Assembly (NCBI GenBank): GCA_964646045.1
Contig: CAZYAW010000088.1
Location: 239-64,238 of the forward strand
From: an uncultured Victivallales bacterium
GTDB lineage: Bacteria; Verrucomicrobiota; Kiritimatiellia; UBA8416; SLMC01
Length of the DNA: 64,000 nucleotides
Direction: 5' to 3'
Position numbers and translations under genes: made by a program. Below are positions 17,485-31,841 of this stretch, piece after piece (positions within the stretch are counted from its first letter, which is position 1; each line of letters starts with the position of its first letter). The notes beneath the pieces were generated by a model. That model saw nothing but the letters and a program-made list of their open reading frames with translations. It was not told the origin of the DNA and searched no databases.

Positions 17485-18384
17485 CTACCGTCTCCGCCTT
17501 CTCGACAAACGATTCGAAAGATACCCGGACAGAATGGCGTCCAGCCTTTCGTCGGTGGCGATATCCGTCAGGTCGTAGCGAAAACGCGCGCAGACCTCGC
17601 GAATCGCCGCCAAATGACGCTCCCTCTCCCTCATATAGGCGCCAACCAGATCTTCCGGATCGCAGAGAAGACGGCCTTCGCCCTCGAGTCCGCGGAAGAT
17701 GGTCTGGCCCACAAACGGAAAATCCCTTTCCGTGGGATCCTCGATATGGAACAGCATGACATCGTGCCCCATATAGCTCATCTGGCCTAGACCCTTGACC
17801 AGCGTGTCGGTTTCATCGACAAAATCGCTGATCACCACCACGACGCCCTTGTTCTTCATTTGCGGCGCAGCGTTCAGCATGGCCCGCCCGATATCGGTCT
17901 TGTCGCCCGGCTGCATCTTGGTCATGACATCCAGCGTGTTGCGAAAATGCGAACCCGATCCCTTGGCGCCCAGAAACGAACGGATGCGTTCGTCGAACAG
18001 AACGACCCCGAAGGTATCCTTCTGCTGCATCATCAAATACGCGAGCGTGGCGACGACCGTGGAAGCGTACTCGTACTTGGACAGGGCGGCCTCTTCGCTT
18101 TTAAAGAACATCGAGGCGCTGGTATCCAGGAAAAAGTACATCGGCATGTTGGTTTCCGCCTCGTACTGTTTCACGAAGAAACGGTCCGTCTTGGCGAACA
18201 CCTTCCAGTCCAGATGCTTGGTGTCGTCGCCCTGCACGTACTGGCGATGCTGCGCGAACTCGGTGCTGATGCCCCGCAACCGGCTCTTGTGAATGCCCAT
18301 CATCAGGCTTTCCGCGAGACGGAAGCTGCGCACTTCCAGTCCCTTGACGCGGCTGACGACATGCGGATCGAAAATGTCTGCCAT
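17485..18384 (-). CDS. DUF58 (MoxR-associated vWA-like) protein
   Basis: DUF58 signature region (HRQYVQGDDTKHLDWKVFAKTDRFFVKQYE). One-nt TAATG junction with the upstream MoxR gene. Confidence 0.75.
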   Translation of the reverse strand: MADIFDPHVVSRVKGLEVRSFRLAESLMMGIHKSRLRGISTEFAQHRQYVQGDDTKHLDWKVFAKTDRFFVKQYEAETNMPMYFFLDTSASMFFKSEEAALSKYEYASTVVATLAYLMMQQKDTFGVVLFDERIRSFLGAKGSGSHFRNTLDVMTKMQPGDKTDIGRAMLNAAPQMKNKGVVVVISDFVDETDTLVKGLGQMSYMGHDVMLFHIEDPTERDFPFVGQTIFRGLEGEGRLLCDPEDLVGAYMRERERHLAAIREVCARFRYDLTDIATDERLDAILSGYLSNRLSRRRRR

Positions 18385-19577
18385 TATGCGGCCACCATGT
18401 TGAGCAGTTCATCTACAATCTTCTGGCGGGTTATGCCCTCGGCTTCGGCGGCGAAGTTGGGCTGAATGCGGTGGCCCAGAACGGCGTGCGCCACCTCCTT
18501 GACATCGTTGACGGTCACTTCATTACGTCCGTCCAGAACGGCCACGGCCTTGCCGCCAATGACCAGATACTGGCAGGCTCGCGGACCGGCGCCCCAGGAC
18601 ACCCACTTGCGCACGAACTCCGGCGCGGACGGCATGTCGCTACGGCTGGAACGGACCAGCTTGAGAATATAGTTGATCACGTCGTCGCCTATCATGACCT
18701 TGCGCACCAGCGCCTGCAGCTCGATGATTTCCTCGCGCGCCAGCACCGGCTGAATGTCCGGCTTGTAGCCGGACGTCGTCATGTCCAGAATCTGCTTCTC
18801 CTCCTGTTCACGGGGATAGCCGACGTTGACTTGGAACATGAAACGGTCCATCTGGGCTTCGGGCAACGGATAGGTGCCTTCCTGCTCGATGGGGTTCTGC
18901 GTGGCCAGCACGAAAAAAGGCGGCTCGAGGGCGCGCCGCTTGCCGCCCACCGTCACCTGCCGCTCCTGCATGGACTCGAGCAGCGACGCCTGGGTCTTGG
19001 GCGGCGTACGGTTGATTTCGTCGGCCAGCAGAATGTTGGTGAAGATCGGCCCCTCGATAAAGCGGAAACTGCGTTCGCCGGTGCTTTTGTCCTCCTGAAT
19101 GACTTCGGTGCCCGTAATGTCGGAAGGCATCAGGTCGGGCGTGAACTGCACACGCTTGAAATTGAGCGAGAGACTGGAGGCCAACGTACTGACCAGCAGC
19201 GTCTTGCCCAGGCCCGGGACACCCATGAGCAGACAGTGACCCTGCGAGAAGAGACTGACCATGGTGAGCTTGACCACTTCGTTCTGGCCGACCAGCGCCT
19301 TGCGAACCTGCGTCATGATCTTTTCGTTGGCCTCGCGCAGTTTGCCGATCTTGGCCATATCGTCGGCCGTCCATTCCTCCTGCTGCGTCATGACATAGGG
19401 CGTTTCCGGCTCTTCCTCCTTGACCGCCGCCGCGGCGGACGGCGCGGATCCCGCCTCGACAACGTCTTTCTGCTCGACGGTAAACACATTGCCGCATTTT
19501 CCGCATTCGGCTTCCTTGCCCAGCATGTCGGTTTCGCTTTCGTATGGCTGTTCGCACTTGGAACACTTGAACTTCAT
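18384..19577 (-). CDS. MoxR-family AAA+ ATPase with N-terminal C4 zinc-ribbon
   Basis: N-terminus MKFKCSKCEQ...CGKCGN (MJ0042-type ribbon), then MoxR motifs (GVPGLGKT Walker A, LADEINR Walker B). Confidence 0.8.
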   Translation of the reverse strand: MKFKCSKCEQPYESETDMLGKEAECGKCGNVFTVEQKDVVEAGSAPSAAAAVKEEEPETPYVMTQQEEWTADDMAKIGKLREANEKIMTQVRKALVGQNEVVKLTMVSLFSQGHCLLMGVPGLGKTLLVSTLASSLSLNFKRVQFTPDLMPSDITGTEVIQEDKSTGERSFRFIEGPIFTNILLADEINRTPPKTQASLLESMQERQVTVGGKRRALEPPFFVLATQNPIEQEGTYPLPEAQMDRFMFQVNVGYPREQEEKQILDMTTSGYKPDIQPVLAREEIIELQALVRKVMIGDDVINYILKLVRSSRSDMPSAPEFVRKWVSWGAGPRACQYLVIGGKAVAVLDGRNEVTVNDVKEVAHAVLGHRIQPNFAAEAEGITRQKIVDELLNMVAA

Positions 19578-19587
19578 GATCTTCCTC

Positions 19588-20760
19588 CTAGGGTTTCCCT
19601 TTGTTTCCTGTTCCGTTTGCCGTTTGACGATTATTCCGGCGTCCGACTTTTTTGAGGGCCGACCAGCGGCCGCGCAACCATTGGCCGCCCGGAACGGACG
19701 CCAGACCGGCGGTCGCCTGTTTTTCTATTTTGAGCACGTCGCGCATCCAGATCGAGCCCTTGGGCACGGTATTGGCCACCGCATCGCGCAGCATGGCCTT
19801 GATCACATATTTGCCGTCGCGGCCCTTGGCCTGCGCCCGGAAGTCCACCAGCAGCCGATGCGCCAGGACCGGATAGGCCACTTCCATGATATCCTGTTTC
19901 GTCACGTGCCGGCGACCGCAGGACAGGGCAATGACCTTGGCCAGCTTGATCAGCGCCTGCGTGGCGCGCGGCGAAGCGCCCAGCCGCACGTTGTCCACCA
20001 CGGCACGGCAGGTGGAAGCTTCTTTCGGGCGACTGGAGCGGACGATCGACATGGCAAAGGCCTTGACGGACGGCACGACCGGCACCTCCTGCGCCAGCGC
20101 CTGCATGGCCAGAATCGTTTGCGGATCGGTTACGGCCCGGATCTCGGGCCGGTAGGTGCCGGTCGTGCTGCGCACAATGGCCCGCTCCTCGCTTTCCGTC
20201 GGATAGTCCTGTTCGATCATCATGATGAAGCGATCGACCTGCGCCTCGCCCAGCATGAAGACGCCCTCGTGATCGAGCGTGTTCTGCGTGGCCACGATCA
20301 TGAAGGGTTTGGGCAGAAAATAGGTTTGCCCGCCCATCGTGATCTGCTTTTCCTGCATGACTTCCAGCAGCGCCGCCTGGGACCGGGCCGGACTGCGGTT
20401 GACTTCGTCGGCCAGCACCATATTGGCGAAAACCGGGCCTTTGAAAAAATGGAAGCTCCGCTCGCCGGTCTGGGCGTTGCGCTCCAGCACTTCCGTCCCG
20501 GTGATATCCGTCGGCAGTAGATCGGGCGTGAACTGAATGCGCCCGTGGTCGAGTCCCAGAATGTCCGAAAGCGACTTGACGATGAGCGTGCGCCCCAGCC
20601 CCGGAAACCCCTTCAGCAGAACGTGCCCGCCGGCGAAAACGGCCGCCAGCAAATGGGTGATCACCTGTTCCTGACCCATGACGATCTTGGCCATCTCCCG
20701 GCGAATCGCATGAAAATTGTCGTAAAACTCCTTGGTGGAGATCGAACCGTTCCCGTTCAT
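19588..20760 (-). CDS. MoxR-family AAA+ ATPase (second paralog)
   Basis: GFPGLGRT Walker A and LADEVNR Walker B. GGAGG Shine-Dalgarno precedes the downstream MoxR gene. Confidence 0.8.
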   Translation of the reverse strand: MNGNGSISTKEFYDNFHAIRREMAKIVMGQEQVITHLLAAVFAGGHVLLKGFPGLGRTLIVKSLSDILGLDHGRIQFTPDLLPTDITGTEVLERNAQTGERSFHFFKGPVFANMVLADEVNRSPARSQAALLEVMQEKQITMGGQTYFLPKPFMIVATQNTLDHEGVFMLGEAQVDRFIMMIEQDYPTESEERAIVRSTTGTYRPEIRAVTDPQTILAMQALAQEVPVVPSVKAFAMSIVRSSRPKEASTCRAVVDNVRLGASPRATQALIKLAKVIALSCGRRHVTKQDIMEVAYPVLAHRLLVDFRAQAKGRDGKYVIKAMLRDAVANTVPKGSIWMRDVLKIEKQATAGLASVPGGQWLRGRWSALKKVGRRNNRQTANGTGNKGKP

Positions 20761-20792: not shown

Positions 20793-22040
20793 CTACTGCG
20801 CCGCAAACTTCAATACGCGCGCCGCGCCCCAGTTGGCGACATCGCCAATGTCCAGATCGCCGCCGCTGACGACTTTGAGCGTCAACATCTTGACCCCTTT
20901 GACGGGGACCGAAACCGAGAGCGAACGCGCATCGGAACCCTTGACCAACGGGCTCTTGTACAGGGACCGGCCGTCGCCGAGCACTTCGAAAACCACGCTG
21001 CCGCGCTTGCCCATGCGCGTATCGACACCGACATCCGACTGGAACTTCTCGTAGCGCCCGCCCAGATCGAAGGTCAGGGCGGCATCGGCATGCACGCCAA
21101 TGCCCCAGGGGTAGTTCTGGCCCGCAATGGACAACACGTTGCCGTGACAGTTGAAGTCCATTTTGTAGGGTTGCGGCGGCATCAAAATGGTCTGTTCCTC
21201 AACCTTGACCGGATCGATCTGGGAAAGGTATTGTACCTTGCCGCCCAGCACCTGCACCAGCGAAATTTCGTCCAGATCGATATGCAGCGGTTTCGGCATC
21301 CAGTCCGTCTGGAACGCCCATTCGCGGGAGCGGATGTGCGCCAGGCGTCCCGAAAGAACGCTGCGATCGCGACCGGTCAGGGCCAGCCGCAACTCGCCCT
21401 TCCAGGGCTCGACTTTGGCGCGGGCCACATCGGCCATGCGCACGCCGCGCAAATACATGATATTAAACGAGCGGACCTGCAGCAAGTCGTCGATATCCAT
21501 GTGCAGCGCCGTCCGTTCCAGACCGCGCACCACGCCGGTAATCTCCGAGCCGCGCCGGTCCACCAAAGCGTCGCGGTATGCCAGGCCGGGAATAGCCCGA
21601 CTATCGACCAGCTCCTCCGCCCGGAAACTGGCGAAGCCCATCATGGGCTGCGTCACGAACCCGCGCAAATGGGACATATCCAGAAAAACCGTCCCGGCCA
21701 TCGGGGTATCGACCTGCAGCTTGTCGCCTTCGTGTCCCAGAATCTGTCCGCGCAAATAGCCGCGTCCAACAAAACGCATCTCCTGGGTACCGGCCTGGGT
21801 CAGCAGCGGATCGCGCCCGAAAAAACGAATGGCGACAATATCCTCCATGGCAATGACCCGTTCCTTGCCCTCGGGCAGAAACACCGCCACCTTGTTGCCG
21901 TCTTCGACGCGCTGCACCAGACCGTACACGCGGGTATTGTCGGCCAGCCAGATCTCTTCCCCTCGCGCCCCGTGCACCGTACCGCAAAACAGCGCCAAAG
22001 CCATGCAGACCGAGGTTCGCCATGTCATTCTTTTCACTGT
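20793..22040 (-). CDS. Secreted protein with C-terminal NPCBM (NEW2) carbohydrate-binding-like domain; start GTG 22040 or ATG 22028
   Basis: Signal-peptide-like MTWRTSVCMALALFCGTVHG. The last ~130 aa carry the NPCBM pattern (GIGVHA...GSVVFEV.GDG..L....DIGDVANWGAARV). AGGGAGG Shine-Dalgarno 6 nt upstream of the GTG. Confidence 0.6.
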   Translation of the reverse strand, partial: TVKRMTWRTSVCMALALFCGTVHGARGEEIWLADNTRVYGLVQRVEDGNKVAVFLPEGKERVIAMEDIVAIRFFGRDPLLTQAGTQEMRFVGRGYLRGQILGHEGDKLQVDTPMAGTVFLDMSHLRGFVTQPMMGFASFRAEELVDSRAIPGLAYRDALVDRRGSEITGVVRGLERTALHMDIDDLLQVRSFNIMYLRGVRMADVARAKVEPWKGELRLALTGRDRSVLSGRLAHIRSREWAFQTDWMPKPLHIDLDEISLVQVLGGKVQYLSQIDPVKVEEQTILMPPQPYKMDFNCHGNVLSIAGQNYPWGIGVHADAALTFDLGGRYEKFQSDVGVDTRMGKRGSVVFEVLGDGRSLYKSPLVKGSDARSLSVSVPVKGVKMLTLKVVSGGDLDIGDVANWGAARVLKFAAQ

Positions 22041-25000
22041 GTACCTCCCTCTTCCAGGAACGATGCGTAATAGGCGGAAATCAAAGCCTTGTGTTTGGAC
22101 GGCAGCTCGTGGCTCAAGGCGCGAATCATGATTTCGCGGAGCTCGGCCGGCAATTTGACGTCCTGACGGATGCGCTCCAGAATATAGGCGGCGGTCTGTC
22201 TTTTTTCCCACTCCTCCTGCGTCATCTCCGTGTGCTCGACCGGCTTGGTCGCGGCGACTTCTTCCGCCGAAAGCTCGCGCTCGTCGAGCAGGCCGCGAAT
22301 ATTCTGCATGGCGCGCGCCAGCAGATTCATGGCTTGCTCGCCGGCGGCGATCGCGGCGGCGGCGTCCTTCTCCAGATTGGCCAGCGAAACACCCTTGTAA
22401 TCGCGAATCTCGCCGATACCCAGCGCCAGCACCTTGGCCTGCATGTCGGGCGTAAGGGCCTCGACACGCGCAACGGCGCTCTGCATGATCTTGGTCGCCT
22501 GCGCCAAACTTTTTTCCGCCTGACCGCGATTGACTTTCTCTATGGCTACTGCGGTCGCCCCCTGCGGACGATGTTCGGCAAAGCGGCGCACCTTTCTGAG
22601 AACGTCGTTCTGCAGCAGAGTGGCATGATTGATCTCGGCCGTCATGGCGGCCACCTCGTCCAGGTTCTTGTCCCGCACAATGTACCGGCGGTCGAAAGCG
22701 TCCTTGCCGCCGCGGCGCTTGTTCTCCTCCACCGCTTCGCCGATCAGCTTGCGCTGGGAAACAAAACTCATGGCATCCTTCAGCGTGGACATGGCATCGG
22801 CCTGCAACTGTTGCGTATGCTTTTGCAGCGCCTGCTCCTCGACCAGCTTGAGCGACTGCAGGAATTCGGTGCGCACTTGGCCGAGCATACCGGCCAGTGG
22901 CTTGTCCTCGGGCTTGTCGGCCTCCTTGACCGCCACGTCCAGCGCCTGTACGGCCCGATTCTGGAAATCCTGAATAATAAAGCGTTTGAGACGAATATAG
23001 CGCGGCATTTCCTTTTCCGAGCTGTTGTCGTTCAGGTAGCGCGTGCGGGCCAGGACGCTGTCCTGGGTCGACCAGGCCAGATCCAGCGCCATCGAGAGGC
23101 GGTCGGATCCCACCGGCAGGGCCTTGATCATATCCTCCCAGGTCATACGTTCCGGCGGGGCTCCCCCGGCGTCGGCCACCTGCACGGGCTCCGCTGCGTC
23201 TTCCCCTTCCCCGGGTTTTGGCACTTCAACCACTTGCCCCAGCGTCGTGACCGGGACCATGGCCAGCGTAATGGCCGGATCTTCGTCCAGACGCTGACCC
23301 GCCAGGATCAGACCGCCCTTGACAATGTTGAGGGCATGCAGCGCCGCCTCCTGATCCTTGATGATCTGGTAGGGCTGGTTGTTGGCAATGGCTTTGGCGG
23401 CCCGATCCAGAAATTCGTTGACCCGATGACTGCGCAACTGCTCGTAGGCGACTTCCAGCGGCTCCTGAATGCTGGTGCGCTTTTGCAGCCGGGCATTGTT
23501 CTGCATGTGAACCAGTTGATTTTCCACCTCGGTCTCCACGTCGAGCATGGTCTTCTGGCGTGCCCCCAAGGTCATCAGCGCATCCAGATCCTTTTCCTGG
23601 ATGTCCCCCGTCTCCAGACCGATCAGGCGCGGCGCAATCTCGCGCGTGAGAACGAGCACTTCCTCCTGCTCCTCGTGCAGCAGGGTGGTGCGCACGGCGC
23701 TGATTTGCAAGTCGCGCCAGTCGAAGATGCGTTTGAGGGCCATTTCCAGATTGAGCAGCGCGTATTTCTGGTGGTCTTTGAAGGCCGCATAGGCTTCCGC
23801 GCGCTTGCCTTTCAACGCGGCTTCCGCCGCCTCGGCGGCGGTCTGCGGGCGAGCGTCGCGAACTTTCTGCTCGATCTCCTTGTGATAATCATCCAGAACC
23901 CTTTGCAGGTACTGGGCCACCACATTGAGGCGGGCCGACATGAACTCCAAGTGCATGCGGTTCTGCTCGTAGCCGGCGGTCAGGTCGCGCAGATGCATGT
24001 TCATGGCCCGCGCGGCGCGAATGGAAGCGTTCTGCCGATCCGTCATGCCGGTCCACAGCGGATCGTCCTCCGCGCCGGTGCCCTTGGCCGCCCATTCGGC
24101 GGCCATTTGCCAGGCCTGCAACTGGTTTTCCCAGGCGATGCGGGCTTCCGCCTCGATGGCGCGCGCCCGCTCAATGGATTCCAGGTGGTACTGACTGGGA
24201 CGCACCAGATTGATTTCGTACGAGACGGAGTCCACCAGACCCTTGCCGGTCGGATTGACGTCCTTGGCCCGCAGAAAATAGCGCAGGATGCCCGCCTGCG
24301 GAAGGTCCTCCATGCGACTGAGATCCCAGTTGAAGCGGTGCTCGCTGCGCGTTCCGCGCTGCGGAATGCCGCCCGCCGTGCGACTGTCGAGCGCACGGGG
24401 TTCCTGGCCGTCCATGTGGTACATGAACTGCACTTTTTCCAGTCCGTAGTCGTCGGTGACGCGCAACATGACGTTCACGGCCAGATTGCGCGTTCCCGAC
24501 AGGTTGCGGCCGGGCGCGACGATCTCCACCTCGGGCGCATTGTCGGGAATGACGCTGATTTCATATACCTGCGGACGGGGTTCGCGGTAGCCGTGTTCCT
24601 CGTAAAGCTCGATGCGGTAGGAACCCTCCTTCTCCAAAAACATGCTGTGCTCGAAAGTCGTGCCGCGCCGTCCCAGCGTCAATACGACGGGTTCTTCGTC
24701 CTCGAAGACGTAGCGCGCCTCCGTGAGGCGCATGGACGACTCGAACTCCAGGCGCACCTTGGTGCCCTCCAGTCCCTGCAACTGCCCGCTGGCCACCGAG
24801 CGATTGGGAATGCCGGCATACACCGGATAGTCGTAGTGCGCCGTCACGCTGCGGATGTAGGGGCGCTGAATGATCTGCACCACAAACGTTTCGGTCAAAT
24901 AGTCTCCCCCGCGAATATTGAAACGAATCTCCTCGCGCACATCCTTGAAATTGTACTCGAAGGTATCGTCGGCGCGCACCTCGATATTCTCGCGAATCCA

Positions 25001-25717
25001 ATGCCCGGTTGTGCGGTCGCGATAGGACATCACCACATGCGCGGGCTTCTCGCCCTCCACCGATCCCTTGACGGCCAGGGACTCCATGGCGGGAATGGTC
25101 CAGCCGCGCTCGGGTTCCTCGATCACAATCGTGGTGCGATGCGGCCAGCGCAGCGAGGAAAACGGATTGAAGAAGCGGACCAGACCGATCGCCGCATACT
25201 CGTGCAGCACGACGGAAAGTCCCACGAAAACGGCCAGCACAATAGCCGCGCGGCGGGTCCAGAGCGTGACTTGCGCGGTTTTAACGGCCTCCGCCTCGCG
25301 GGCCTGTTCGGCGACGGGCGCCACGTCGTGAATGGCACTGTCCGCCAGCGCTTTTCCAGTCTCGCCTTGCGTTTCCTGGATGTCCTCGTTTTCGATCAGC
25401 TCGTACAAATCGAGGAGCATGGCCCGCTCCGGCGGCAGAACCGAATCCATGTACCCCAGGGTCTGCTTATGGTTCCAGGGTGTCGCCAAAGGCCTGACGA
25501 TCGTCCACCAGACGGCGGCGCCGATCAGGGCCAGATAGGCGACCAGATTGACGAAACGCACAAAGCCGCCGAAATGTATCCACCAGTCGAGCAGCAGCAG
25601 CGGCGGCAGGACGACCAGGCCCAGCGCCACCAGACGCGCGATGCCGATCCGCTTTATGGCGCTTCTGAACTTGGCCTGAAAATCCGCACACAGGCCGGCG
25701 AGGTTGCCGAGTTCCAT
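22034..25717 (-). CDS. Large (1227 aa) membrane-anchored beta-rich plus long alpha-helical/coiled-coil protein (DUF4175-like, MoxR-operon associated)
   Basis: 2-3 N-terminal TM helices, a mid beta-rich region, and a C-terminal ~600 aa that is E/K/A/L-rich with heptad-like spacing. Balanced composition, unlike the R/G-rich antisense ORF 22022..25795. Confidence 0.55.
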   Translation of the reverse strand: MELGNLAGLCADFQAKFRSAIKRIGIARLVALGLVVLPPLLLLDWWIHFGGFVRFVNLVAYLALIGAAVWWTIVRPLATPWNHKQTLGYMDSVLPPERAMLLDLYELIENEDIQETQGETGKALADSAIHDVAPVAEQAREAEAVKTAQVTLWTRRAAIVLAVFVGLSVVLHEYAAIGLVRFFNPFSSLRWPHRTTIVIEEPERGWTIPAMESLAVKGSVEGEKPAHVVMSYRDRTTGHWIRENIEVRADDTFEYNFKDVREEIRFNIRGGDYLTETFVVQIIQRPYIRSVTAHYDYPVYAGIPNRSVASGQLQGLEGTKVRLEFESSMRLTEARYVFEDEEPVVLTLGRRGTTFEHSMFLEKEGSYRIELYEEHGYREPRPQVYEISVIPDNAPEVEIVAPGRNLSGTRNLAVNVMLRVTDDYGLEKVQFMYHMDGQEPRALDSRTAGGIPQRGTRSEHRFNWDLSRMEDLPQAGILRYFLRAKDVNPTGKGLVDSVSYEINLVRPSQYHLESIERARAIEAEARIAWENQLQAWQMAAEWAAKGTGAEDDPLWTGMTDRQNASIRAARAMNMHLRDLTAGYEQNRMHLEFMSARLNVVAQYLQRVLDDYHKEIEQKVRDARPQTAAEAAEAALKGKRAEAYAAFKDHQKYALLNLEMALKRIFDWRDLQISAVRTTLLHEEQEEVLVLTREIAPRLIGLETGDIQEKDLDALMTLGARQKTMLDVETEVENQLVHMQNNARLQKRTSIQEPLEVAYEQLRSHRVNEFLDRAAKAIANNQPYQIIKDQEAALHALNIVKGGLILAGQRLDEDPAITLAMVPVTTLGQVVEVPKPGEGEDAAEPVQVADAGGAPPERMTWEDMIKALPVGSDRLSMALDLAWSTQDSVLARTRYLNDNSSEKEMPRYIRLKRFIIQDFQNRAVQALDVAVKEADKPEDKPLAGMLGQVRTEFLQSLKLVEEQALQKHTQQLQADAMSTLKDAMSFVSQRKLIGEAVEENKRRGGKDAFDRRYIVRDKNLDEVAAMTAEINHATLLQNDVLRKVRRFAEHRPQGATAVAIEKVNRGQAEKSLAQATKIMQSAVARVEALTPDMQAKVLALGIGEIRDYKGVSLANLEKDAAAAIAAGEQAMNLLARAMQNIRGLLDERELSAEEVAATKPVEHTEMTQEEWEKRQTAAYILERIRQDVKLPAELREIMIRALSHELPSKHKALISAYYASFLEEGGTQ

Positions 25718-25730: not shown

Positions 25731-26927
25731 TTATCTCTCGTAAATGGGCAGATACCCGTAGGGGGCCTGCAAAGCAATGGCCGCCATGGCCGTGACATAG
25801 ACCGTGTTGCCGCGATGGTCGGCGAATTCGCCGTCCTTGCGGCGGGCGGCCCGCAGAATCTCCACCGCCTTCTTGTAGTAGGGCAGGTAGTACGTGTCGC
25901 CGGTGGTATACATCGCCAGACTGCCGAAGAAAATGCCGTACACGAAATACTCGCGATCCAGAAAATCCTGCACGGTATAGCGCTGATAGTCGTAGGCGAT
26001 GCGGTCGCGGGTCGGCGGGATCAGCATGTGGTCGAGCGAGCCGTCGTTGACCAGCGCGATGATGCCGGTTCCGCTCATGCTGGGATTGGCCGTCAGCCCG
26101 AAATGACGGTAGCGGAACGTGCCGTCCGGCAACGCGCATCTCTCGACATAGGCCATGCCTTTGCGCACCACGTCGGCGGATACGGTGAACCCCGACTTCT
26201 TGGCCGTACGCAACACCCAGAGCGCATTGCCGGTCACCGATATGTCGCTGGCGCCGTCCGGCGAATAGGAATAGCGCCATCCGCCGTCGCGCTTCTGGGC
26301 CTGCTGCATGCCCTCCAGCGCCCGCGTGATGATGGGCCTGAGCCCGGGTTCCCAGGGCATGTCGCCGAAGTTCATCAGCAGCACGAGGGTCGCCAGCAGA
26401 TGTTCGTACATGGGACCCAGCTCGTTGGCCGTCTTGCCGACCAGAATGCCGCTGCTGGTCTGCACGTTGCGCGTCAGGAATTCAATGCCGCGCGTGATCT
26501 GGCGTCCGTACCGGCCGATGTTGGGGCGACTGCCCTCCGACATGAAAGCCATCATGGCCAGAGCCGCCACGCCGGTATTGGACTGAAAATCCTTGTCCGT
26601 CCAGCCGCCGTCGGCGTCCTGCATGGTGACCAGATACTTCAAGGCGCCGTCGATCATCTCCTTGACTTCGTCGGTGAGCAGTTCCTCGGCCATACGGCTG
26701 CGCTCGGTCGCCCGCGGCAGCACCAGAAACGCGGGATCCTTGCCCGGGAAGACCGGCCCCTTTTCCGAAGCCTTGCGCTTAAGCAGATCTTCCACCGCCT
26801 TTTCCTTGGCTTTGGCGTCGGCCGGCGCGCTGGTGGGCCCGAACAGGGCCGTTTCGAACGCGATCCCGACCACGACTGCGGCGACCAGCCGCCTGCTCAG
26901 CGAACTCGATCCGGTCCGTTTTCTCAT
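25731..26927 (-). CDS. Secreted prenyltransferase/squalene-cyclase-repeat (alpha/alpha toroid) protein
   Basis: Repeated DADGGW / RDGGWRY motifs and a signal-like N-terminus (RRLVAAVVVGIAF). ATG at 26927 overlaps the upstream gene stop (ATGA). Confidence 0.55.
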   Translation of the reverse strand: MRKRTGSSSLSRRLVAAVVVGIAFETALFGPTSAPADAKAKEKAVEDLLKRKASEKGPVFPGKDPAFLVLPRATERSRMAEELLTDEVKEMIDGALKYLVTMQDADGGWTDKDFQSNTGVAALAMMAFMSEGSRPNIGRYGRQITRGIEFLTRNVQTSSGILVGKTANELGPMYEHLLATLVLLMNFGDMPWEPGLRPIITRALEGMQQAQKRDGGWRYSYSPDGASDISVTGNALWVLRTAKKSGFTVSADVVRKGMAYVERCALPDGTFRYRHFGLTANPSMSGTGIIALVNDGSLDHMLIPPTRDRIAYDYQRYTVQDFLDREYFVYGIFFGSLAMYTTGDTYYLPYYKKAVEILRAARRKDGEFADHRGNTVYVTAMAAIALQAPYGYLPIYER

Positions 26928-29275
26928 AGCAACCCCCACCATTTTCTGAGCGACCATTCCGCTCCCACGAGGAACAGGAACAGGAACAGGAATCCGATGC
27001 CGTCCCATACTTCGACCATAACGGAACGACGCAGCACCTGAAACTCCGTCGGGATCTCGTCGACGAGCGAACGGAGATCCTGCATGTTGCGATAGTCGAA
27101 ATACTTGCCGCCCGTTTTCTCCGCCAGCGCGCGCATGCCCTCGACATCGGCGCTGGTATCGCGATGCTCCATGGACTGCATGTGGACGCGGAAGACATGC
27201 GAGACGTCGAAAATGGGTCGCGCCTCCGAATCGGCGCCCGGCGCGGCCTGCGTACAGCGCACCACGGTGCTGCCCGTGCGGCGGGCCCGGTAGTGGCCGG
27301 TATAGAGCATGCGACCGCCCGAATCAGGCTGCAGCGGGATCATCTGCTCGTCCTTTTGCGGTGTGGTGACGGAGGCGAAGAGCGGCACGCCGCGCAGTTG
27401 AGCCATCAGGGCCGGATCCAGAACGCGCAGGCGAACCAACACGTTTTCGCCGGGCGAATAAGTGTTGCGTTCGGTATCGAGCGCCACCTGCTGCTGGGAT
27501 CCCTTGAGCCGCGTTTCGCCGAGATAGCGAATCGCACGCGTCCAGAGCCGATCGTAGTCGAAGGTTTCAAAAGGAAAGCGCCAGCGCCAAAGGCTATTGA
27601 TGCCGGAATAGAAAACCGCCCCCTCGCCGTAGCGCTGAATCACCATCAGCGGCACGGTGTCGGCGGCCAACCCGCCGCCGTCGGCGCTCGGCTCGGTCTC
27701 GAGCAGCGTAATGGCGTCCGGCTTGACCCGTTCGACGGGGGCGTGCCAGTAGAACTTCGGGAAAGTCGCCCAGATTTTCTCGTTGTCCTCCTCGTGACTC
27801 GATGCCAGCATAATGGGATGGTCCCGCCCGATCGTGGTGCGCCGCACCGCCCGCTCGCGGTCGAAGACCTGAAAATAGTTGGGCATCAGGTTGCGATCAA
27901 CTTCGACCGGCAGCAGGTTGCGCATGCGCACGGCGTGCACCTGGACGAATTTCGCCATGCCGTGGTTGCGCCCGGCCATGATCAGCAGGCCGCCGCCACG
28001 CCGCACCATATCGTCGATGCCGGTGATCTGCTGGGTCGTAATCTTGTTGGGGTCGGCGTCGAAGAGAATGCAGACGTCGTAGCGTTGCCAGTCGGCCAGA
28101 TCCTCGGGCAGCCGACTCAGCGTGACATTGCCCTGCTGAACATAGTCCACGTCCGCATTCTGCAGCCAGGTGGACAGCTCCAACACCGGGTCGCGCAGCA
28201 GCGCCGGCACCAGATAGTAGTATTCGCGCGTGGGCTCGCCCGCGATCAGAATGACACGCAAGGAGCGACGCACCACCTTGACATGGACGGAAGCCTCGTT
28301 GTTTTCCAGGTTCACTTCGTCGGGCTGGATCGGAAGCGAGACCTTGAACTCGCGAATGCCTTCGACCTCGGGCACGGTGGCGATCGGCACGCGGTTTTCG
28401 CCGCGGCGCAGTTGCACGCGCCGACTGGCCACCTGTTCGCCCTCTTCCGTGAGGGTCAGCGTCGTCACCAGTTGATCCTGAATCTGATTGACGATTTTCA
28501 AGTCGAAAATCAGAACGTCGCCCAGACTGGCTTCGGCTTCCACAAGGACGTCCTCGATGCCCAGGTCGCGCAGGGGATGTTCGGTGCCGAAAACCACCGT
28601 ATGCACCGGCACATTGGCCCGCGCCGCCTGTTCGGCCGCCACTTCGAGACTGGCGCCGCTGGTCTGGCGTCCGTCGCTCAGCAGCACGATCCCGGAAATG
28701 CGTTCGTCGGACAGATTGCGCAGCGTGGCGACGATGGAGTCGCCGACATTCGAGTATTCGCCGGTCGGTTCGGCGGCTTTGGTGAATAGCTCGTCCCGTG
28801 TCATCGGCGCCTGGCTGCGATTTTCGCGATAGGGCATTTCGCGCAGCAGCCGCAACATGTCGGAAAAGGTGAACACACGGACGCGATGCGACAGCGTAAG
28901 CGGTTCCTGCAGCGTGTTGACGGCCTCCTGCATGGTGTCGTAGCGAGTGCGCCGGTCTCGGGGCCGGGCCTGGACCATGGGATTTTCGAGCGTATCCGGG
29001 AAGTCCATGCTCAGGGACTCGTCCACGATCATGGCTACGGCGGGCAGACGGCGCGTGGTGTGGACCAGCGTCACGGCCGGGCGCGCCAGCGCCAGCAGGC
29101 CTAAACCGGCCACCAGCACACGTAAGATCCAGAGCGTACGCTTCTGCCGCGGGGTCAGCCGTCGGGCCTGGCGAGCCTCGCTGCGATAGAAGCGCGCGTA
29201 CACGAACAGCAGCGCGACACCCAGTACGACCAGGAACACGATAAACGGTTGGCTTGTCAGCATCGTTGGCTTCAT
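26924..29275 (-). CDS. Large vWA-domain membrane protein (BatB/BatA-like), N- and C-terminal TM anchors
   Basis: Two N-terminal TM helices, a vWA MIDAS-like motif (IVDESLSMD), and a C-terminal TM (GIGFLFLFLFLVGAEW). Confidence 0.6.
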   Translation of the reverse strand: MKPTMLTSQPFIVFLVVLGVALLFVYARFYRSEARQARRLTPRQKRTLWILRVLVAGLGLLALARPAVTLVHTTRRLPAVAMIVDESLSMDFPDTLENPMVQARPRDRRTRYDTMQEAVNTLQEPLTLSHRVRVFTFSDMLRLLREMPYRENRSQAPMTRDELFTKAAEPTGEYSNVGDSIVATLRNLSDERISGIVLLSDGRQTSGASLEVAAEQAARANVPVHTVVFGTEHPLRDLGIEDVLVEAEASLGDVLIFDLKIVNQIQDQLVTTLTLTEEGEQVASRRVQLRRGENRVPIATVPEVEGIREFKVSLPIQPDEVNLENNEASVHVKVVRRSLRVILIAGEPTREYYYLVPALLRDPVLELSTWLQNADVDYVQQGNVTLSRLPEDLADWQRYDVCILFDADPNKITTQQITGIDDMVRRGGGLLIMAGRNHGMAKFVQVHAVRMRNLLPVEVDRNLMPNYFQVFDRERAVRRTTIGRDHPIMLASSHEEDNEKIWATFPKFYWHAPVERVKPDAITLLETEPSADGGGLAADTVPLMVIQRYGEGAVFYSGINSLWRWRFPFETFDYDRLWTRAIRYLGETRLKGSQQQVALDTERNTYSPGENVLVRLRVLDPALMAQLRGVPLFASVTTPQKDEQMIPLQPDSGGRMLYTGHYRARRTGSTVVRCTQAAPGADSEARPIFDVSHVFRVHMQSMEHRDTSADVEGMRALAEKTGGKYFDYRNMQDLRSLVDEIPTEFQVLRRSVMVEVWDGIGFLFLFLFLVGAEWSLRKWWGLL

Positions 29276-31485
29276 GCGGTTTTCATTCCCCTCGCTCTAC
29301 GCCGGCCGAATCGCAAGGCCAGAAACGCCTCGACGCCCAGCACGATCAGCACGATCCAAAGAAAAAACTGCGAAAACTCCGTGACGGCATGCATTTTGGC
29401 CGCCAAGTCCTCGATCGGAACCTCGGGGTTGACCCACGTGTACTGGCCGCGCCCGAATGCGTTTCTGAATCCGGACTCGGACAGGCGGCTGAGGTCCCCC
29501 TGTTCGGAACGGGGATTGACGACGAAGCGGGTGCGCGGCACCACGCCGGGCAGCGTATCCACGAAACGGTAGACTCCCTGCTGGTCGGTATCCTCGTAGC
29601 GCACGAACCAGGCGTCCTCCTGATCCGGACGGGCTTGCGGGGTCAGGCGCGAACGCTGTCCGTCGGGCGCCTGCAGAATCAGGTGCTGGGCGCTGACGAA
29701 AACCAGTTGCTCGAAGGGGTCGCCCGCATCCACATTGACCTTCTCGTCCGGGTTGCCCATCAGGTAGCGCAGCGTATCCTGAACGAGAACGGGGTATTCG
29801 ATCACGGCGGGCAGGTAGGTCCAATGCGCGCCGGCCGTCGCGTTGGCCAGCAGCACGCGTCCGCGACCGTACTCCTTCTCGATCAGGAAAGGCGTGCCGT
29901 CGGACATCGCCAACGCGACCCGGGCGCCCTCCTGCAGATTCAGATTGTAGAGGACCGAAAAACGGGCGTCGCGGGCGACGCTGGCGCCCAGGGCGTGCAG
30001 GGCGGGATGCGTGGAGGCCCCGAAATTCAGGTAGGGGCGCGCATCGGAATCGGCGGCGTCGGCCGTGATCGTCTTGACATCGAGCAGCGCGCCGGGCAAC
30101 GGGCCCTGGCCTTCCGCGTAGAAATGACGGTTGTAGTCGAAGGCGTTGATGTTCGGCCCGAGAAAGAACCACAGGGAACCGCCGGCGGCGGCATACTGTT
30201 TCAGCCGCGCGCCCAGCGATTCGTCCACGTGGGCCAACTGGGTGGCGATCATCACGGGATAGCGGTCGAGATTTTCGTAGCGCAGCATCGAGGGATGAAT
30301 CGACGTGGCGGAGAAGCGCGTGACCTTTTCCATGGCCGGATGCGTGGGCGGCGCGATGGCGCGCGTCAGGAAGACGCTTTCCATGCGCAGCGGATCGACG
30401 GCCGTTTCCGCTTGCGTTTCCGGGGCCGCCGCCCCGGTCACCGGCGCCGTCTCGTCCAGAATCAGCACGGGAAACGTCTCGGGCACGGTGCAGAGGTAGG
30501 CGCGCTGGTTGTCGATGAGGTGCTGGTCGCCTTCGACCACGGCCTCGACGACGTATTCGCCCGGCTGCGCGAAGGTGTGATCGAAACTGACGACCGCCGG
30601 TTTCTCGCCCGGTTCGAAGTAGCGCACGTCCTTGCTGTCGCCGTCGACCACCAGCGTCACCGAAGGCCGGGCGTCGCGCGGCGGACGCCCCCAGGTTCCC
30701 ACCTGTACCTGAAAGGTGACGGGCAATTTCGTGGAAAGGGCGAACTCCGTCGGGCGCAATTCGGAGAGAACATAGTTGAAGTCGTGCTTGCTGCCCACGT
30801 CCACCAGGTAAAGATCGTTCTTTTCGCCCAGTTCGCCCAGCAGCCGGGACGTTTCGGCGGCCAGCCCGCCGGGCGGCGACCACGTGTTACGCTGAAAGTC
30901 CGAGAAGACATAGACTTCCGCCGCCGTTTCGTCTTCGGCGCGTTTGAAGTACTCGCTCATCCACTGCAGCGCGGAGGCGGCCGGAACGGCGCCCAGCGTG
31001 GCTCGCAGGGCATCGACCTTGGCGGCTGCGGTGTGGGCGTCGGTCTCCTTTTCCAGTACGCCCTCGGCGCGCGTGCCGAAGGACAGGACGGTAATCAGAG
31101 CATCGCCCTCGACCCCGCGGATCAGACCGGACGCGCGCCGCTGGGCCACGCCGAAGGCCGTAGTGACGCCCACCTGCTGATGCATGCTGGCCGTCGCGTC
31201 CAGGGCGATGACCAGATGACGCCGCCGTCCGTCGCCCATCATACCGTGGCGCACTTGCGGACGCGCCAGTGCCAGCGCCAACAGCAAAAGCAGCAGCGTG
31301 CGCACCAGCAGCAGGATGCGATCCTGCCGTTTAATGTTCTCCTGATCCTTGTTGCGCAGCAGAAAGCGCAACGTCGGCAGATCGACCTGACGCTTGCGTC
31401 GGCGAAACAGCCATTCAATGATCCAGGGAAGAGCGGCCGCCAGAAGGGCCAACAGCATGAGAGGGTTGCCGAAAAAAGAGGTCAC
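29272..31485 (-). CDS. BatA-like vWA-domain membrane protein; start probably GTG 31485 (or ATG 31458)
   Basis: BatA-type N-terminus (NPLMLLALLAAALPWIIEWLFRRRKR...LRFL), vWA motif (IALDATASM), and a C-terminal TM helix. GGGAG Shine-Dalgarno upstream of the GTG. Confidence 0.6.
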   Translation of the reverse strand: MTSFFGNPLMLLALLAAALPWIIEWLFRRRKRQVDLPTLRFLLRNKDQENIKRQDRILLLVRTLLLLLLALALARPQVRHGMMGDGRRRHLVIALDATASMHQQVGVTTAFGVAQRRASGLIRGVEGDALITVLSFGTRAEGVLEKETDAHTAAAKVDALRATLGAVPAASALQWMSEYFKRAEDETAAEVYVFSDFQRNTWSPPGGLAAETSRLLGELGEKNDLYLVDVGSKHDFNYVLSELRPTEFALSTKLPVTFQVQVGTWGRPPRDARPSVTLVVDGDSKDVRYFEPGEKPAVVSFDHTFAQPGEYVVEAVVEGDQHLIDNQRAYLCTVPETFPVLILDETAPVTGAAAPETQAETAVDPLRMESVFLTRAIAPPTHPAMEKVTRFSATSIHPSMLRYENLDRYPVMIATQLAHVDESLGARLKQYAAAGGSLWFFLGPNINAFDYNRHFYAEGQGPLPGALLDVKTITADAADSDARPYLNFGASTHPALHALGASVARDARFSVLYNLNLQEGARVALAMSDGTPFLIEKEYGRGRVLLANATAGAHWTYLPAVIEYPVLVQDTLRYLMGNPDEKVNVDAGDPFEQLVFVSAQHLILQAPDGQRSRLTPQARPDQEDAWFVRYEDTDQQGVYRFVDTLPGVVPRTRFVVNPRSEQGDLSRLSESGFRNAFGRGQYTWVNPEVPIEDLAAKMHAVTEFSQFFLWIVLIVLGVEAFLALRFGRRRARGMKTA

Positions 31486-31841
31486 AAAACGCTCCCGTAT
31501 CAAGTTGATTGTCCACCCGCAACGCTTATGCGGCATTCCTGCCGTCGGCACGGGAGCCGAGCGCCGGGGACGCGGCCCCGTGCCAACAACCTTTGAGCCG
31601 ACATTCCCGCCCTAGGCAAAGTCGCAACTAGCAAACACGATGGAAGTCATTAACAGGCATTGGGGACATTGTCAATAGACAAACAAAAAAAAAACCGAAA
31701 CCGCGCGCAAAGGCCGGCAGATCTCGTTACGCCCCGAACCCCGCCGCCTTGTATCGCGGGGGACGACTCCCAAACGAGAACGGCTGGGCGAACGCACATT
31801 GCTGTTGACGACGCATGGCCCGATGCGCTATGGGTGGCGGC

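What the first reader, a model, noticed from the sequence alone, without database searches (positions are those of the whole stretch)
18384..20760. Tandem MoxR ATPases, one fused to an MJ0042-type zinc ribbon
Two adjacent MoxR-family AAA+ genes (397 and 390 aa) both have intact Walker A/B. The downstream one begins MKFKCSKCEQPYESE...CGKCGNVF, a four-Cys ribbon followed by an acidic linker. Such a fusion could recruit the ATPase to a partner or nucleic acid. Duplicated MoxRs suggest a hetero-hexamer or two substrate specificities.
Basis: seen in the sequence. Interest (0 to 1): 0.5.

Follow-up and report, generated by a model that had tools for sequence, protein, structure and literature searches.

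The report
Paired MoxR ATPases, one Arg-substituted
Two neighbouring chaperone-like ATPase genes form a fixed pair in planctomycete-like bacteria: one copy always carries an arginine where the ATP-splitting lysine should be, and the normal copy sometimes, as here, carries a small zinc-binding docking domain, which suggests a mixed ATPase ring that nobody has yet studied.

Summary
The two genes are real, lie on the minus strand at the stated coordinates, and both are MoxR-class AAA+ ATPases. One claim is wrong: the upstream 390-aa protein does not have an intact Walker A. It reads GFPGLGRT, with Arg in place of Lys. All 120 of its closest homologues share this, always with CGN codons. The downstream 397-aa protein keeps GKT.

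The Arg-type gene is followed by a Lys-type MoxR in 24 of 24 loci that hold at least 1,500 nt of downstream DNA, usually with overlapping or near-touching stop and start codons. A DUF58/vWA gene follows the pair. The module sits in a Bat-like envelope operon found in Planctomycetota and Kiritimatiellia.

The N-terminal four-Cys ribbon is genuine. It has a strong Shine-Dalgarno site, invariant cysteines and fixed 16-residue spacing, and AlphaFold2 predicts a ribbon fold. It is optional, present in 46 of 119 top homologues and 3 of 24 unbiased pairs. Its closest solved relatives are the GltJ and ZitP ribbons, which bind proteins.

Best reading (about 0.5): a mixed ring of catalytic Lys subunits and ATP-holding Arg subunits, with the ribbon as a docking or switch module. 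None of this is tested biochemically. It is a new variant of a known kind, of moderate interest.

The parts
19588..20760 (-). MoxR-R: the upstream MoxR-class AAA+ paralogue (390 aa) with Arg in place of the Walker A Lys
   Evidence: AAA_3 183 bits and AAA_lid_2 58 bits. The AlphaFold2 model shows an AAA+ fold with pLDDT 83. 120 of 120 homologues have GRT.
20587..20610 (-). Non-canonical Walker A of MoxR-R, GFPGLGRT (Arg57, codon CGC)
   Evidence: In the joint alignment, K125 is 100% conserved in the Lys clade and R57 is 100% conserved in the Arg clade.
20395..20418 (-). Walker B of MoxR-R (VLADEVNR), intact
   Evidence: D118 and E119 are invariant in alignment A1.
19591..19764 (-). C-terminal extension of MoxR-R: the clade-wide motif P..S.W.R[DE].L (SIWMRDVL at 19732-19755), then a 47-aa basic tail (net charge +10) found only in this sub-clade
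   Evidence: S336, W338 and L343 are at least 90% conserved. Monomer pLDDT here is low, 44-63.
19583..19589 (-). Shine-Dalgarno AGGAGGA for the ZnR-MoxR gene. It overlaps the MoxR-R stop codon (19588-19590) and lies 5 nt before the ATG at 19577
   Evidence: Read directly from the sequence.
18384..19577 (-). ZnR-MoxR-K: the downstream MoxR paralogue (397 aa) with canonical Walker A GVPGLGKT (19200-19223)
   Evidence: AAA_3 212 bits. PDB 2R44 matches by sequence at E 3.7e-78. The fold match has TM 0.90 and rmsd 2.3 A. 119 of 119 homologues have a Lys in Walker A (GKT or AKT).
19470..19577 (-). N-terminal four-Cys zinc ribbon (residues 1-36; C5, C8, C25, C28), of MJ0042/GltJ/ZitP type
   Evidence: The cysteines are invariant. 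Knuckle spacing is 16 residues in 45 of 46 homologues. PF13717 hits 34 of 34 ribbons and TIGR02098 hits 28 of 34. AlphaFold2 predicts four strands with pLDDT 82-87. PDB relatives are 7ZOK and 2NB9.
19380..19469 (-). Flexible acidic, low-complexity linker (residues 37-66)
   Evidence: pLDDT is below 50 for residues 38-51. Across homologues the linker is 15-65 aa, has median charge -2.5 and is about 70% A/P/G/S/T/E.
17485..18384 (-). DUF58/vWA protein (299 aa) with an intact MIDAS motif (DTSAS). Its start overlaps the MoxR-K stop codon (TAATG)
   Evidence: DUF58 145.6 bits. The overlap is read and the MIDAS motif. DUF58 follows the pair in every locus with enough downstream DNA.
20793..22211 (-). 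NPCBM-domain protein, probably secreted. Public gene calls give 403-414 aa, so the start is uncertain
   Evidence: NPCBM 119 bits. It lies upstream of the pair in most related loci.
22034..25717 (-). 1227-aa protein with three N-terminal TM-like segments and no Pfam, NCBIfam or PADLOC match
   Evidence: It is syntenic in L005, L085-L087 and many metagenome loci.
25731..27008 (-). Protein with squalene-hopene-cyclase-like repeats (terpene-cyclase-like) and one TM or signal segment
   Evidence: SQHop_cyclase_C 39.8 bits. TM-like segment.
26924..29275 (-). Membrane-anchored vWA/DUF7408 protein (783 aa) with MIDAS motif DESLS and three TM-like segments
29272..31551 (-). BatA-N + vWA membrane protein (759 aa), the first gene of the operon
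   Evidence: BatA 56.6 bits and VWA_2 30.2 bits. TM-like segments.

Best explanation
The two genes encode the two subunit types of one MoxR-class AAA+ machine in a Bat-like envelope operon of a bacterium of the Planctomycetes-Verrucomicrobia-Chlamydiae (PVC) group. I call the paralogues MoxR-K and MoxR-R after the Walker A residue.

Shown:
- MoxR-K has every catalytic motif.
- MoxR-R has a clade-wide, long-fixed Walker A Lys->Arg change. It keeps Walker B, sensor 1, the Arg finger, sensor 2 and the helix-2-insert region.
- Wherever enough DNA is available, the Arg gene is followed directly by a Lys gene and then by a soluble DUF58/vWA gene with an intact MIDAS motif. Stop and start codons often overlap.

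Inferred:
- The two proteins co-assemble into a mixed ring, most simply an alternating R3K3 hexamer.
- The Lys sites hydrolyse ATP. The Arg sites bind ATP but turn it over slowly or not at all, acting as structural or regulatory sites, while MoxR-R still supplies the residues that act on the neighbouring Lys sites.
- With DUF58 as a MIDAS adaptor, the ring remodels or matures the membrane-anchored vWA proteins (the BatA-like and 783-aa proteins) and their partners, namely the 1227-aa membrane protein, the NPCBM protein and the cyclase-like protein.
- The N-terminal zinc ribbon on its 15-65-aa acidic linker is an optional protein-docking or autoinhibitory switch module. It would work like the GltJ and ZitP ribbons, and like the zinc-binding N-domain of ClpX in its position relative to an AAA+ ring.
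For: Identity:
- Both proteins match AAA_3 and AAA_lid_2.
- The MoxR-K model superposes on the solved MoxR structure 2R44 with TM 0.90.

Arg substitution:
- 120 of 120 homologues of MoxR-R carry Arg, against 119 of 119 homologues of MoxR-K carrying Lys.
- The joint alignment shows K125 versus R57, each 100% conserved in its clade. It shows ten further clade-specific fixed differences (at least 90% conserved in each clade), including K194/R126, P239/G171 and V252/Q184.
- Arg codons are CGN in 46 of 46 cases.
- D118, E119, N160, R177 and R265 are invariant in MoxR-R.

Pairing:
- An Arg-specific DNA pattern found 36 metagenome loci. Together with 7 other loci, 31 of 43 show a Lys-type MoxR 1,082-1,483 nt downstream on the same strand.
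- The other 12 loci are all cut off before that distance. Of loci with at least 1,500 nt downstream, 24 of 24 have the Lys partner.
- The gap between the Arg gene's stop and the Lys gene's start is -8 to +10 nt in 20 of 31 pairs.
- DUF58 follows in every locus with enough downstream DNA.

Control: 77 loci of single MoxR genes from other phyla held no Arg-type copy.

Operon: the same gene order occurs in Lignipirellula cremea CP036433 and in other contigs.

Ribbon:
- The cysteines are invariant and the spacing is fixed.
- AlphaFold2 predicts a ribbon followed by a disordered linker.
- The best full-length solved relatives are GltJ/AgmX (7ZOK, E 5e-8) and ZitP (2NB9, E 1e-5). Both bind proteins, and the GltJ ribbon is followed by a flexible linker to which it binds as a switch (PMC11135422).

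General knowledge: Lys->Arg at Walker A typically spares nucleotide binding but blocks hydrolysis. An example is Rad51-K133R, described as hydrolysis-deficient (bioRxiv 10.1101/070276). Covalently fused MoxR-MoxR proteins exist (P0002, P0241), so rings built from two module types are feasible.
Against: - There is no direct evidence of co-assembly. No multimer modelling was possible with these tools.
- No R-K fusion protein was seen. The two fused MoxR-MoxR proteins are Lys-type in both halves.
- MoxR-K also keeps its own neighbour-acting Arg residues. The Arg sites are therefore probably still nucleotide-loaded and sensed rather than simply dead.
- An Arg in the P-loop might still support slow catalysis.
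- Adjacency and coupling would also be expected for two separately acting rings in one pathway.
- The ribbon is dispensable in most lineages: only 3 of 24 unbiased pairs carry it, and a rough tree needs about 16 gains or losses. Whatever it does is accessory.
- The client proteins of the system are unknown.
Confidence: 0.5

Rival explanations
1. The proteins form two separate homo-hexameric MoxR rings with different clients. For example, one might serve DUF58 and the other the BatA-like or 783-aa vWA proteins.
For: The operon encodes three vWA proteins. Two have a canonical DxSxS MIDAS motif (the 783-aa protein and DUF58); the BatA-like protein has a DxTxS variant, DATAS. The two clades have clade-specific fixed residues outside the ATP site and different terminal extensions. 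Both keep a full set of neighbour-acting residues.
Against: A ring made only of GRT subunits would be expected to be a poor ATPase. Yet its catalytic-site partners are invariant. The Arg type was never seen without a Lys partner immediately downstream: 24 of 24 loci. Stop and start codons often overlap, which favours equal amounts of the two proteins.
Confidence: 0.25
2. MoxR-R is not a ring subunit. It is a pseudo-ATPase regulator or adaptor, for example a cap, an inhibitor or a client mimic of the MoxR-K hexamer or of DUF58.
For: It has the Walker A Lys->Arg change. Its conserved C-terminal motif has low monomer confidence, as expected for a docking peptide. It evolves slightly faster than MoxR-K on the same contigs (identities).
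Against: Walker B, sensor 1, the Arg finger, sensor 2 and the helix-2-insert region are all invariant. That is the pattern of a protein still working inside an AAA+ ring interface.
Confidence: 0.12
3. The zinc ribbon binds nucleic acid, for example to autoregulate the operon or to target an RNA or DNA client.
For: Zinc ribbons often bind nucleic acids. Most homologous ribbons are basic, with median net charge +3.
Against: The window's ribbon is acidic (-2) and sits on an acidic linker. Charge is not conserved, ranging from -3 to +6. The closest solved relatives bind proteins. The operon is otherwise all membrane, envelope and vWA proteins.
Confidence: 0.07
4. The pair belongs to a MoxR-vWA conflict or defence system of the ternary type described by Kaur et al. 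2020.
For: Both proteins exceed the Pfam bpMoxR (PF20030) threshold, with 47.7 and 38.1 bits against 27. Some relatives have a giant beta-propeller gene after DUF58.
Against: AAA_3 scores are 4-5 times higher. The window has no VMAP, iSTAND, FtsH or vWA-beta-propeller fusion component. PADLOC gave no meaningful hit. The operon is conserved and syntenic across a phylum rather than patchy and mobile.
Confidence: 0.03

Closest known systems
MoxR-proper (MRP) AAA+ ATPases of Bat/DUF58/vWA operons, such as CHU_0153 (PDB 2R44) and the Riemerella anatipestifer and Bacteroides Bat-operon MoxR
   Same: They share the AAA_3 + AAA_lid_2 architecture. The fold match to 2R44 has TM 0.90 and 40% identity. 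The genes are linked to DUF58, BatA-N and vWA membrane proteins (PMC11834572).
   Different: Known systems have one MoxR gene, usually first in the operon. Here there are two obligate paralogues at the end of the operon, one with Walker A GRT. No TPR Bat proteins are present. The operon also has lineage-specific partners: a 1227-aa membrane protein, an NPCBM protein and a cyclase-like protein.
N-terminal zinc ribbons of GltJ/AgmX (Myxococcus, PDB 7ZOK) and ZitP (Caulobacter, PDB 2NB9); the MJ0042-type finger (TIGR02098, PF13717/PF13719)
   Same: They have the same position (residues 1 to about 40) and the same CxxC...CxxC pattern, followed by a long flexible linker. They are the best full-length matches among solved structures. 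GltJ and ZitP ribbons bind proteins, and the GltJ ribbon also binds its own linker as a switch.
   Different: Those ribbons head membrane-anchored scaffold proteins, not an ATPase. The window's copy scores below the curated cut-offs on its own (16.0 against 20.9 bits; 22.5 against 30.3 bits). Its partner is unknown.
ClpX N-terminal zinc-binding domain (from my own knowledge, not tested here)
   Same: A Cys4 zinc domain on a flexible tether ahead of an AAA+ ring, used to dock adaptors and substrates.
   Different: It has a different zinc-finger fold class and belongs to a different AAA+ clade. There is no homology claim; the resemblance is functional only.
AAA+ rings that mix catalytic and non-catalytic modules: Mg-chelatase BchI/BchD, Pex1/Pex6, dynein and midasin (from my own knowledge; the MoxR-dynein/midasin relationship is stated in PMC3495828)
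   Same: Division of labour between hydrolysing sites and sites that only bind nucleotide within one ring. MoxR belongs to the same helix-2-insert clade as the chelatases, dynein and midasin.
   Different: Here the non-canonical site differs by a single conservative Lys->Arg change, with everything else kept. MoxR-R is not BchD (TIGR02031 32.9 bits against a cut-off of 499.55). Ring composition is inferred, not shown.
Covalently fused tandem MoxR proteins found here (P0002, 695 aa; P0241, FHA-MoxR-MoxR, 916 aa)
   Same: Two MoxR modules are encoded side by side, which implies rings built from pairs of modules.
   Different: Both halves carry a Lys in Walker A (GVPGLAKT) and are closer to MoxR-K (52-56% identity) than to MoxR-R (43-46%). 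They are independent duplications, not fusions of the R/K pair.

Membership tests
MoxR AAA+ (MRP subfamily; Pfam AAA_3 + AAA_lid_2) | AAA_3 and AAA_lid_2 domains above the gathering score | tested here: met
   MoxR-K scores 212 and 54.5 bits; MoxR-R scores 183 and 58 bits. The cut-offs are 27 and 22.7.
MoxR AAA+ (MRP subfamily; Pfam AAA_3 + AAA_lid_2) | Canonical Walker A GxxGxGK[ST] | tested here: not met
   Met by the 397-aa protein (GVPGLGKT). Not met by the 390-aa protein (GFPGLGRT). Arg is present in 120 of 120 of its homologues.
MoxR AAA+ (MRP subfamily; Pfam AAA_3 + AAA_lid_2) | Walker B DE, sensor 1 Asn, Arg finger and sensor 2 Arg | tested here: met
   Both proteins have them: LLADEINR and VLADEVNR, ATQN, EAQxDRF, and GAGPRA and GASPRA.
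MoxR AAA+ (MRP subfamily; Pfam AAA_3 + AAA_lid_2) | Fold of a solved MoxR structure | tested here: met
   The MoxR-K model (pLDDT 88) matches 2R44 at E 8e-35, TM 0.90, rmsd 2.3 A. The MoxR-R model has an AAA+ fold (pLDDT 83) but was not fold-searched.
MoxR AAA+ (MRP subfamily; Pfam AAA_3 + AAA_lid_2) | Neighbouring DUF58/vWA genes | tested here: met
   DUF58 overlaps the MoxR-K stop codon. It is present in every related locus with enough downstream DNA.
MoxR AAA+ (MRP subfamily; Pfam AAA_3 + AAA_lid_2) | Hexamer formation and ATPase or chaperone activity | not testable with these tools
   Needs biochemistry.
RavA | Match to the RavA equivalog model, and a LARA domain | tested here: not met
   NF010054 scores 30.9 bits against a cut-off of 681. 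There is no C-terminal extra domain.
MJ0042-type zinc ribbon (TIGR02098; Pfam PF13717/PF13719) | N-terminal CxxC-x(16-19)-CxxC | tested here: met
   C5, C8, C25 and C28 with 16-residue spacing. The cysteines are invariant in 34 homologues.
MJ0042-type zinc ribbon (TIGR02098; Pfam PF13717/PF13719) | Score above the curated model cut-off | tested here: inconclusive
   The window's copy falls below: TIGR02098 16.0 against 20.9 bits, and PF13717 22.5 against 30.3 bits. Its homologues do hit: 28 of 34 for TIGR02098 and 34 of 34 for PF13717 at E<=0.1, with best E 6.7e-9.
MJ0042-type zinc ribbon (TIGR02098; Pfam PF13717/PF13719) | Zinc-ribbon fold of two beta-hairpin knuckles | tested here: met
   AlphaFold2 predicts strands at 2-4, 11-13, 22-24 and 31-33 with pLDDT 82-87. 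This is a prediction only. The closest full-length PDB sequences are 7ZOK and 2NB9.
MJ0042-type zinc ribbon (TIGR02098; Pfam PF13717/PF13719) | Zinc binding | not testable with these tools
   Needs metal analysis.
Bat (Bacteroides aerotolerance) operon | MoxR + DUF58 + BatA-N protein + membrane vWA proteins in one operon | tested here: met
Bat (Bacteroides aerotolerance) operon | TPR-repeat Bat proteins, and MoxR as the first gene | tested here: not met
   No TPR domain was found in the eight operon genes. The MoxR genes come near the end. A second architecture, R-K-DUF58-BatA-vWA, exists in L007.
MoxR-vWA ternary conflict systems (Kaur et al. 2020) | A third signature component: VMAP, iSTAND, FtsH or a vWA-beta-propeller fusion | tested here: not met
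   None is present in the window operon. PADLOC found nothing relevant. The bpMoxR Pfam hits (47.7 and 38.1 bits) are overlapping hits from a related family.

The most novel reading that the evidence does not exclude
The R/K pair is an obligate asymmetric hetero-hexamer. It would be the first bacterial MoxR ring shown to divide labour between hydrolysing (Lys) sites and ATP-locked (Arg) sites. That would make it a free-standing prokaryotic counterpart of the mixed active and inactive AAA modules of dynein and midasin, whose closest prokaryotic relatives are MoxR proteins. Where present, the GltJ/ZitP-like ribbon would tether or gate this ring at a PVC-specific envelope complex.
Probability: 0.3. 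Interest if true: 0.7.

Novelty: new variant of a known kind. Interest (0 to 1): 0.5.

Why it matters
MoxR ATPases are widespread, but their mechanisms and clients are poorly understood. They are studied as single-gene homo-hexamers. A phylum-wide obligate pair, with a natural Lys->Arg 'mutant' fixed in one partner, would be a ready-made system for asking how ATP-binding-only sites regulate an AAA+ ring. It is also relevant to how the heterogeneous rings of dynein and midasin could have arisen from MoxR-like ancestors.

The pair marks a conserved but uncharacterised envelope operon in Planctomycetota and Kiritimatiellia. The operon combines BatA/vWA proteins, a 1227-aa membrane protein, an NPCBM protein and a cyclase-like protein.

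The zinc-ribbon fusion extends the GltJ/ZitP-type docking module to an ATPase. That gives a handle, by pull-down, for finding the partners of the system.

For annotation, 'MoxR family ATPase' currently hides two distinct orthologous groups.

Tried and rejected
1. The genome-contig scan with the MoxR-R alignment chose generic MoxR peptide patterns. 77 of 80 loci were single Lys-type MoxR genes from Bacteroidota and other phyla, and only L005-L007 were true orthologues. The scan was useful only as a control.
2. A homologue search with the ribbon profile returned only 17 short ORFs of 39-70 aa. It gave no view of which other protein families carry this ribbon.
3. I asked whether the basic C-terminal tail of MoxR-R (+10) pairs with the acidic ribbon linker of MoxR-K. 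This is rejected as a general rule. The long basic tail is confined to the window's sub-clade, and other ribbon-bearing pairs have short neutral tails.
4. I asked whether the fused MoxR-MoxR proteins P0002 and P0241 are fusions of the R/K pair. They are not. Both halves are Lys-type and closer to MoxR-K.
5. I asked whether the ribbon was gained once. A rough neighbour-joining tree needs about 16 gains or losses. Ribbon sub-types follow clades, so repeated loss is likely, but the tree is too crude to settle this.
6. Literature searches for a MoxR pair, a MoxR zinc ribbon, or MoxR in planctomycetes found no description of this pair.
7. Cluster look-ups gave no organism names. The window's taxon is inferred only from named relatives in Planctomycetota, Phycisphaerae and Kiritimatiellia.
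8. PADLOC and NCBIfam hold no specific model for either paralogue.
9. Heteromer structure prediction was not possible.

Full report
**Observation**

The region holds two co-oriented minus-strand genes, 19588..20760 (390 aa) and 18384..19577 (397 aa), separated by 10 nt. Both are MoxR-class AAA+ proteins. Pfam AAA_3 scores 183 and 212 bits against a cut-off of 27, and both also match AAA_lid_2. They are 44% identical over 306 residues.

The 397-aa protein matches the only solved close relative, the Cytophaga MoxR structure 2R44, at E 3.7e-78 by sequence. Its AlphaFold2 model (pLDDT 88.4) superposes on 2R44 with TM 0.90 and rmsd 2.3 A. Neither protein is RavA: the NF010054 model scores 30.9 bits against a cut-off of 681.

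**The correction**

The upstream protein's Walker A is GFPGLGRT, not GxxGxGKT (window 20587-20610, Arg codon CGC). This is a defining trait of a whole orthologous group, not an error. I call the two paralogues MoxR-R and MoxR-K after this residue.

- All 120 best homologues of the 390-aa protein have G-R-[TS]. All 119 single-domain homologues of the 397-aa protein have a Lys at this position (GKT or AKT).
- In a joint alignment the position is 100% Lys in one clade and 100% Arg in the other. Ten further clade-specific fixed differences (at least 90% conserved in each clade) exist, including K194/R126, P239/G171, V252/Q184 and N374/D306.
- In 46 Arg-type genes from related loci the codon is always CGN, two substitutions away from Lys.
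- MoxR-R keeps Walker B (D118, E119), sensor 1 (N160), the Arg finger (R177), sensor 2 (R265) and the helix-2-insert region, all invariant.
- In a library clustered at 50% identity, only two Arg-type representatives appear among the top 150 hits. 138 others have Lys and 10 had no regex match. The Arg clade is therefore compact.

**Pairing**

A DNA pattern specific for the Arg-type P-loop (GxPGLGRTLxVK) found 36 metagenome loci. I combined these with the window's own contig, three genome loci and three contigs fetched through homologues, giving 43 loci.

- 31 of the 43 loci show a Lys-type MoxR Walker A 1,082-1,483 nt downstream on the same strand.
- The other 12 are all cut off before that distance.
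- Of loci with at least 1,500 nt downstream, 24 of 24 have the Lys partner.
- The gap between the Arg gene's stop and the Lys gene's start is -8 to +10 nt in 20 of 31 pairs, often an ATGA overlap.
- In the window the Shine-Dalgarno AGGAGGA of the Lys gene overlaps the Arg gene's stop codon. The DUF58 start overlaps the Lys gene's stop codon as TAATG.
- As a control, 77 MoxR loci from other phyla contained a single Lys-type gene and no Arg type.

**Operon**

The pair closes an eight-gene minus-strand operon:

1. A BatA-N/vWA membrane protein (759 aa).
2. A vWA/DUF7408 membrane protein (783 aa, MIDAS motif DESLS).
3. A squalene-cyclase-like repeat protein.
4. A 1227-aa protein with three TM-like segments and no family match.
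5. An NPCBM protein.
6. MoxR-R.
7. ZnR-MoxR-K.
8. DUF58/vWA (MIDAS motif DTSAS).

The same order occurs on identical or related contigs and in the complete genome of Lignipirellula cremea. DUF58 follows the pair in every locus with enough downstream DNA. NPCBM and the large protein precede it in most loci. A second architecture, R-K-DUF58-BatA-vWA, also exists.

Named relatives are Planctomycetota, Phycisphaerae, Pirellulaceae and Kiritimatiellia. PADLOC gave nothing relevant, and the signature third components of the MoxR-vWA conflict systems are absent.

**Zinc ribbon**

The start codon is well supported by the Shine-Dalgarno site. Of the 119 best single-domain MoxR-K homologues, 46 carry the ribbon. 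Knuckle spacing is 16 residues in 45 of those 46. The knuckles occur as CxxC/CxxC, CxxC/CxC or CxC/CxxC variants. The four Cys and Gly20 are invariant across 34 aligned ribbons that are only 24-62% identical to the window's.

- PF13717 hits 34 of 34 ribbons, PF13719 hits 33 of 34 and TIGR02098 (MJ0042_CXXC) hits 28 of 34, with best E 6.7e-9.
- The window's own copy is below the curated cut-offs: 22.5 against 30.3 bits, and 16.0 against 20.9 bits.
- AlphaFold2 predicts four short strands with pLDDT 82-87, followed by a disordered linker.
- Linkers are 15-65 aa, net acidic and low-complexity.

The ribbon is optional. Only 3 of 24 pairs in the unbiased metagenome sample have it. A rough tree suggests repeated loss.

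Its best full-length relatives among solved structures are the GltJ/AgmX ribbon (7ZOK, E 5e-8) and the ZitP ribbon (2NB9, E 1e-5). The multi-finger C2H2 hits that rank higher are sums of short matches to single knuckles. The GltJ ribbon is N-terminal, is followed by a 95-residue flexible linker, binds that linker and acts as a switch. The ZitP ribbon binds PopZ (PMC11135422).

Ribbon net charge varies from -3 to +6 and is -2 here. This argues against a conserved nucleic-acid-binding role.

**Interpretation**

The most economical reading is a mixed ring. Lys subunits hydrolyse ATP. Arg subunits hold nucleotide with little turnover, yet contribute their neighbour-acting Arg residues to the adjacent Lys sites.

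The basis is indirect:
- the obligate pairing and translational coupling;
- the pattern of what is lost and kept in MoxR-R;
- the general behaviour of Walker A Lys->Arg mutants, for example Rad51-K133R, described as hydrolysis-deficient (bioRxiv 10.1101/070276).

Fused MoxR-MoxR proteins (P0002, P0241) show that two-module MoxR units exist. They are K/K duplications, however, not fusions of this pair.

By analogy with other MoxR-vWA and Bat systems (PMC3495828; PMC11834572), the ring would act with DUF58 on the operon's MIDAS-bearing membrane proteins. The ribbon plus linker would be a docking or autoinhibitory module.

Separate homo-hexamers, or MoxR-R acting as a regulator outside the ring, remain possible. 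No literature on this pair was found, and NCBIfam has no dedicated model.

**Verdict**

The feature is a new variant of a known kind: a MoxR/DUF58/vWA system with an obligate Lys/Arg paralogue pair and an optional GltJ/ZitP-type ribbon. Interest is moderate, at 0.5.

Noticed in passing
not in the window: proteins P0002 (695 aa) and P0241 (916 aa): Single polypeptides with two complete MoxR modules. P0241 also has an N-terminal region that looks like an FHA domain by eye; I did not test it. Both halves carry a Lys in Walker A (GVPGLAKT) and are closer to MoxR-K than to MoxR-R.
   Followed up: partly
window 19591-19764 (-): MoxR-R carries a clade-wide C-terminal motif, P..S.W.R[DE].L. In this sub-clade only, a 47-aa basic tail (+10) follows. 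Both regions have low confidence in the monomer model, which suggests a docking peptide.
   Followed up: partly
not in the window: P0117, P0119, P0120 and P0007: Some MoxR-K homologues replace the zinc ribbon with other N-terminal extensions. One example is a Lys/Val-rich stretch, MSDAENEQKKVVVKKVVKKVV.... P0007, in the window's own sub-clade, has a non-Cys extension.
   Followed up: no
L007; also L085 and L086: A second operon layout, R-K-DUF58-BatA-vWA, exists in L007. In Lignipirellula (L085) and L086 a 1602-1736-aa PQQ beta-propeller/TPR protein follows DUF58 (with a PA14 domain in L086). It is absent from the window.
   Followed up: partly
window 16898-17326 (-): A stand-alone response-regulator receiver protein (142 aa) lies directly downstream of DUF58. 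It could be co-transcribed with the operon.
   Followed up: no
window 10444-16874 (-); L001 versus L002: A downstream glycan cluster encodes GT4 glycosyltransferases, MurJ and Wzy_C. Contigs that encode an identical MoxR-K protein differ in gene content just after the response regulator. L001 has 230-aa and 137-aa genes where L002 has a 391-aa GT4 gene. This indicates strain-level variation.
   Followed up: no
window 18471-19655 (+) and 22022-25795 (+): Very long ORFs (394 and 1257 aa) run antisense to the real genes. They have no family support and are typical artefacts of high-GC DNA that could mislead a reader.
   Followed up: partly
window 20793-22211 (-): The start of the NPCBM gene is ambiguous. 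The longest ORF gives 472 aa and overlaps the end of the 1227-aa gene, whereas public gene calls give 403 or 414 aa.
   Followed up: no
window 34918-36553 (+): tRNA-Thr(GGT) and tRNA-Trp(CCA) flank a 402-aa ORF (35044-36252), possibly tuf by position but not tested. A 1263-aa ORF at 39843-43634 was also not tested. If these are housekeeping genes, the window is chromosomal rather than a mobile element.
   Followed up: no
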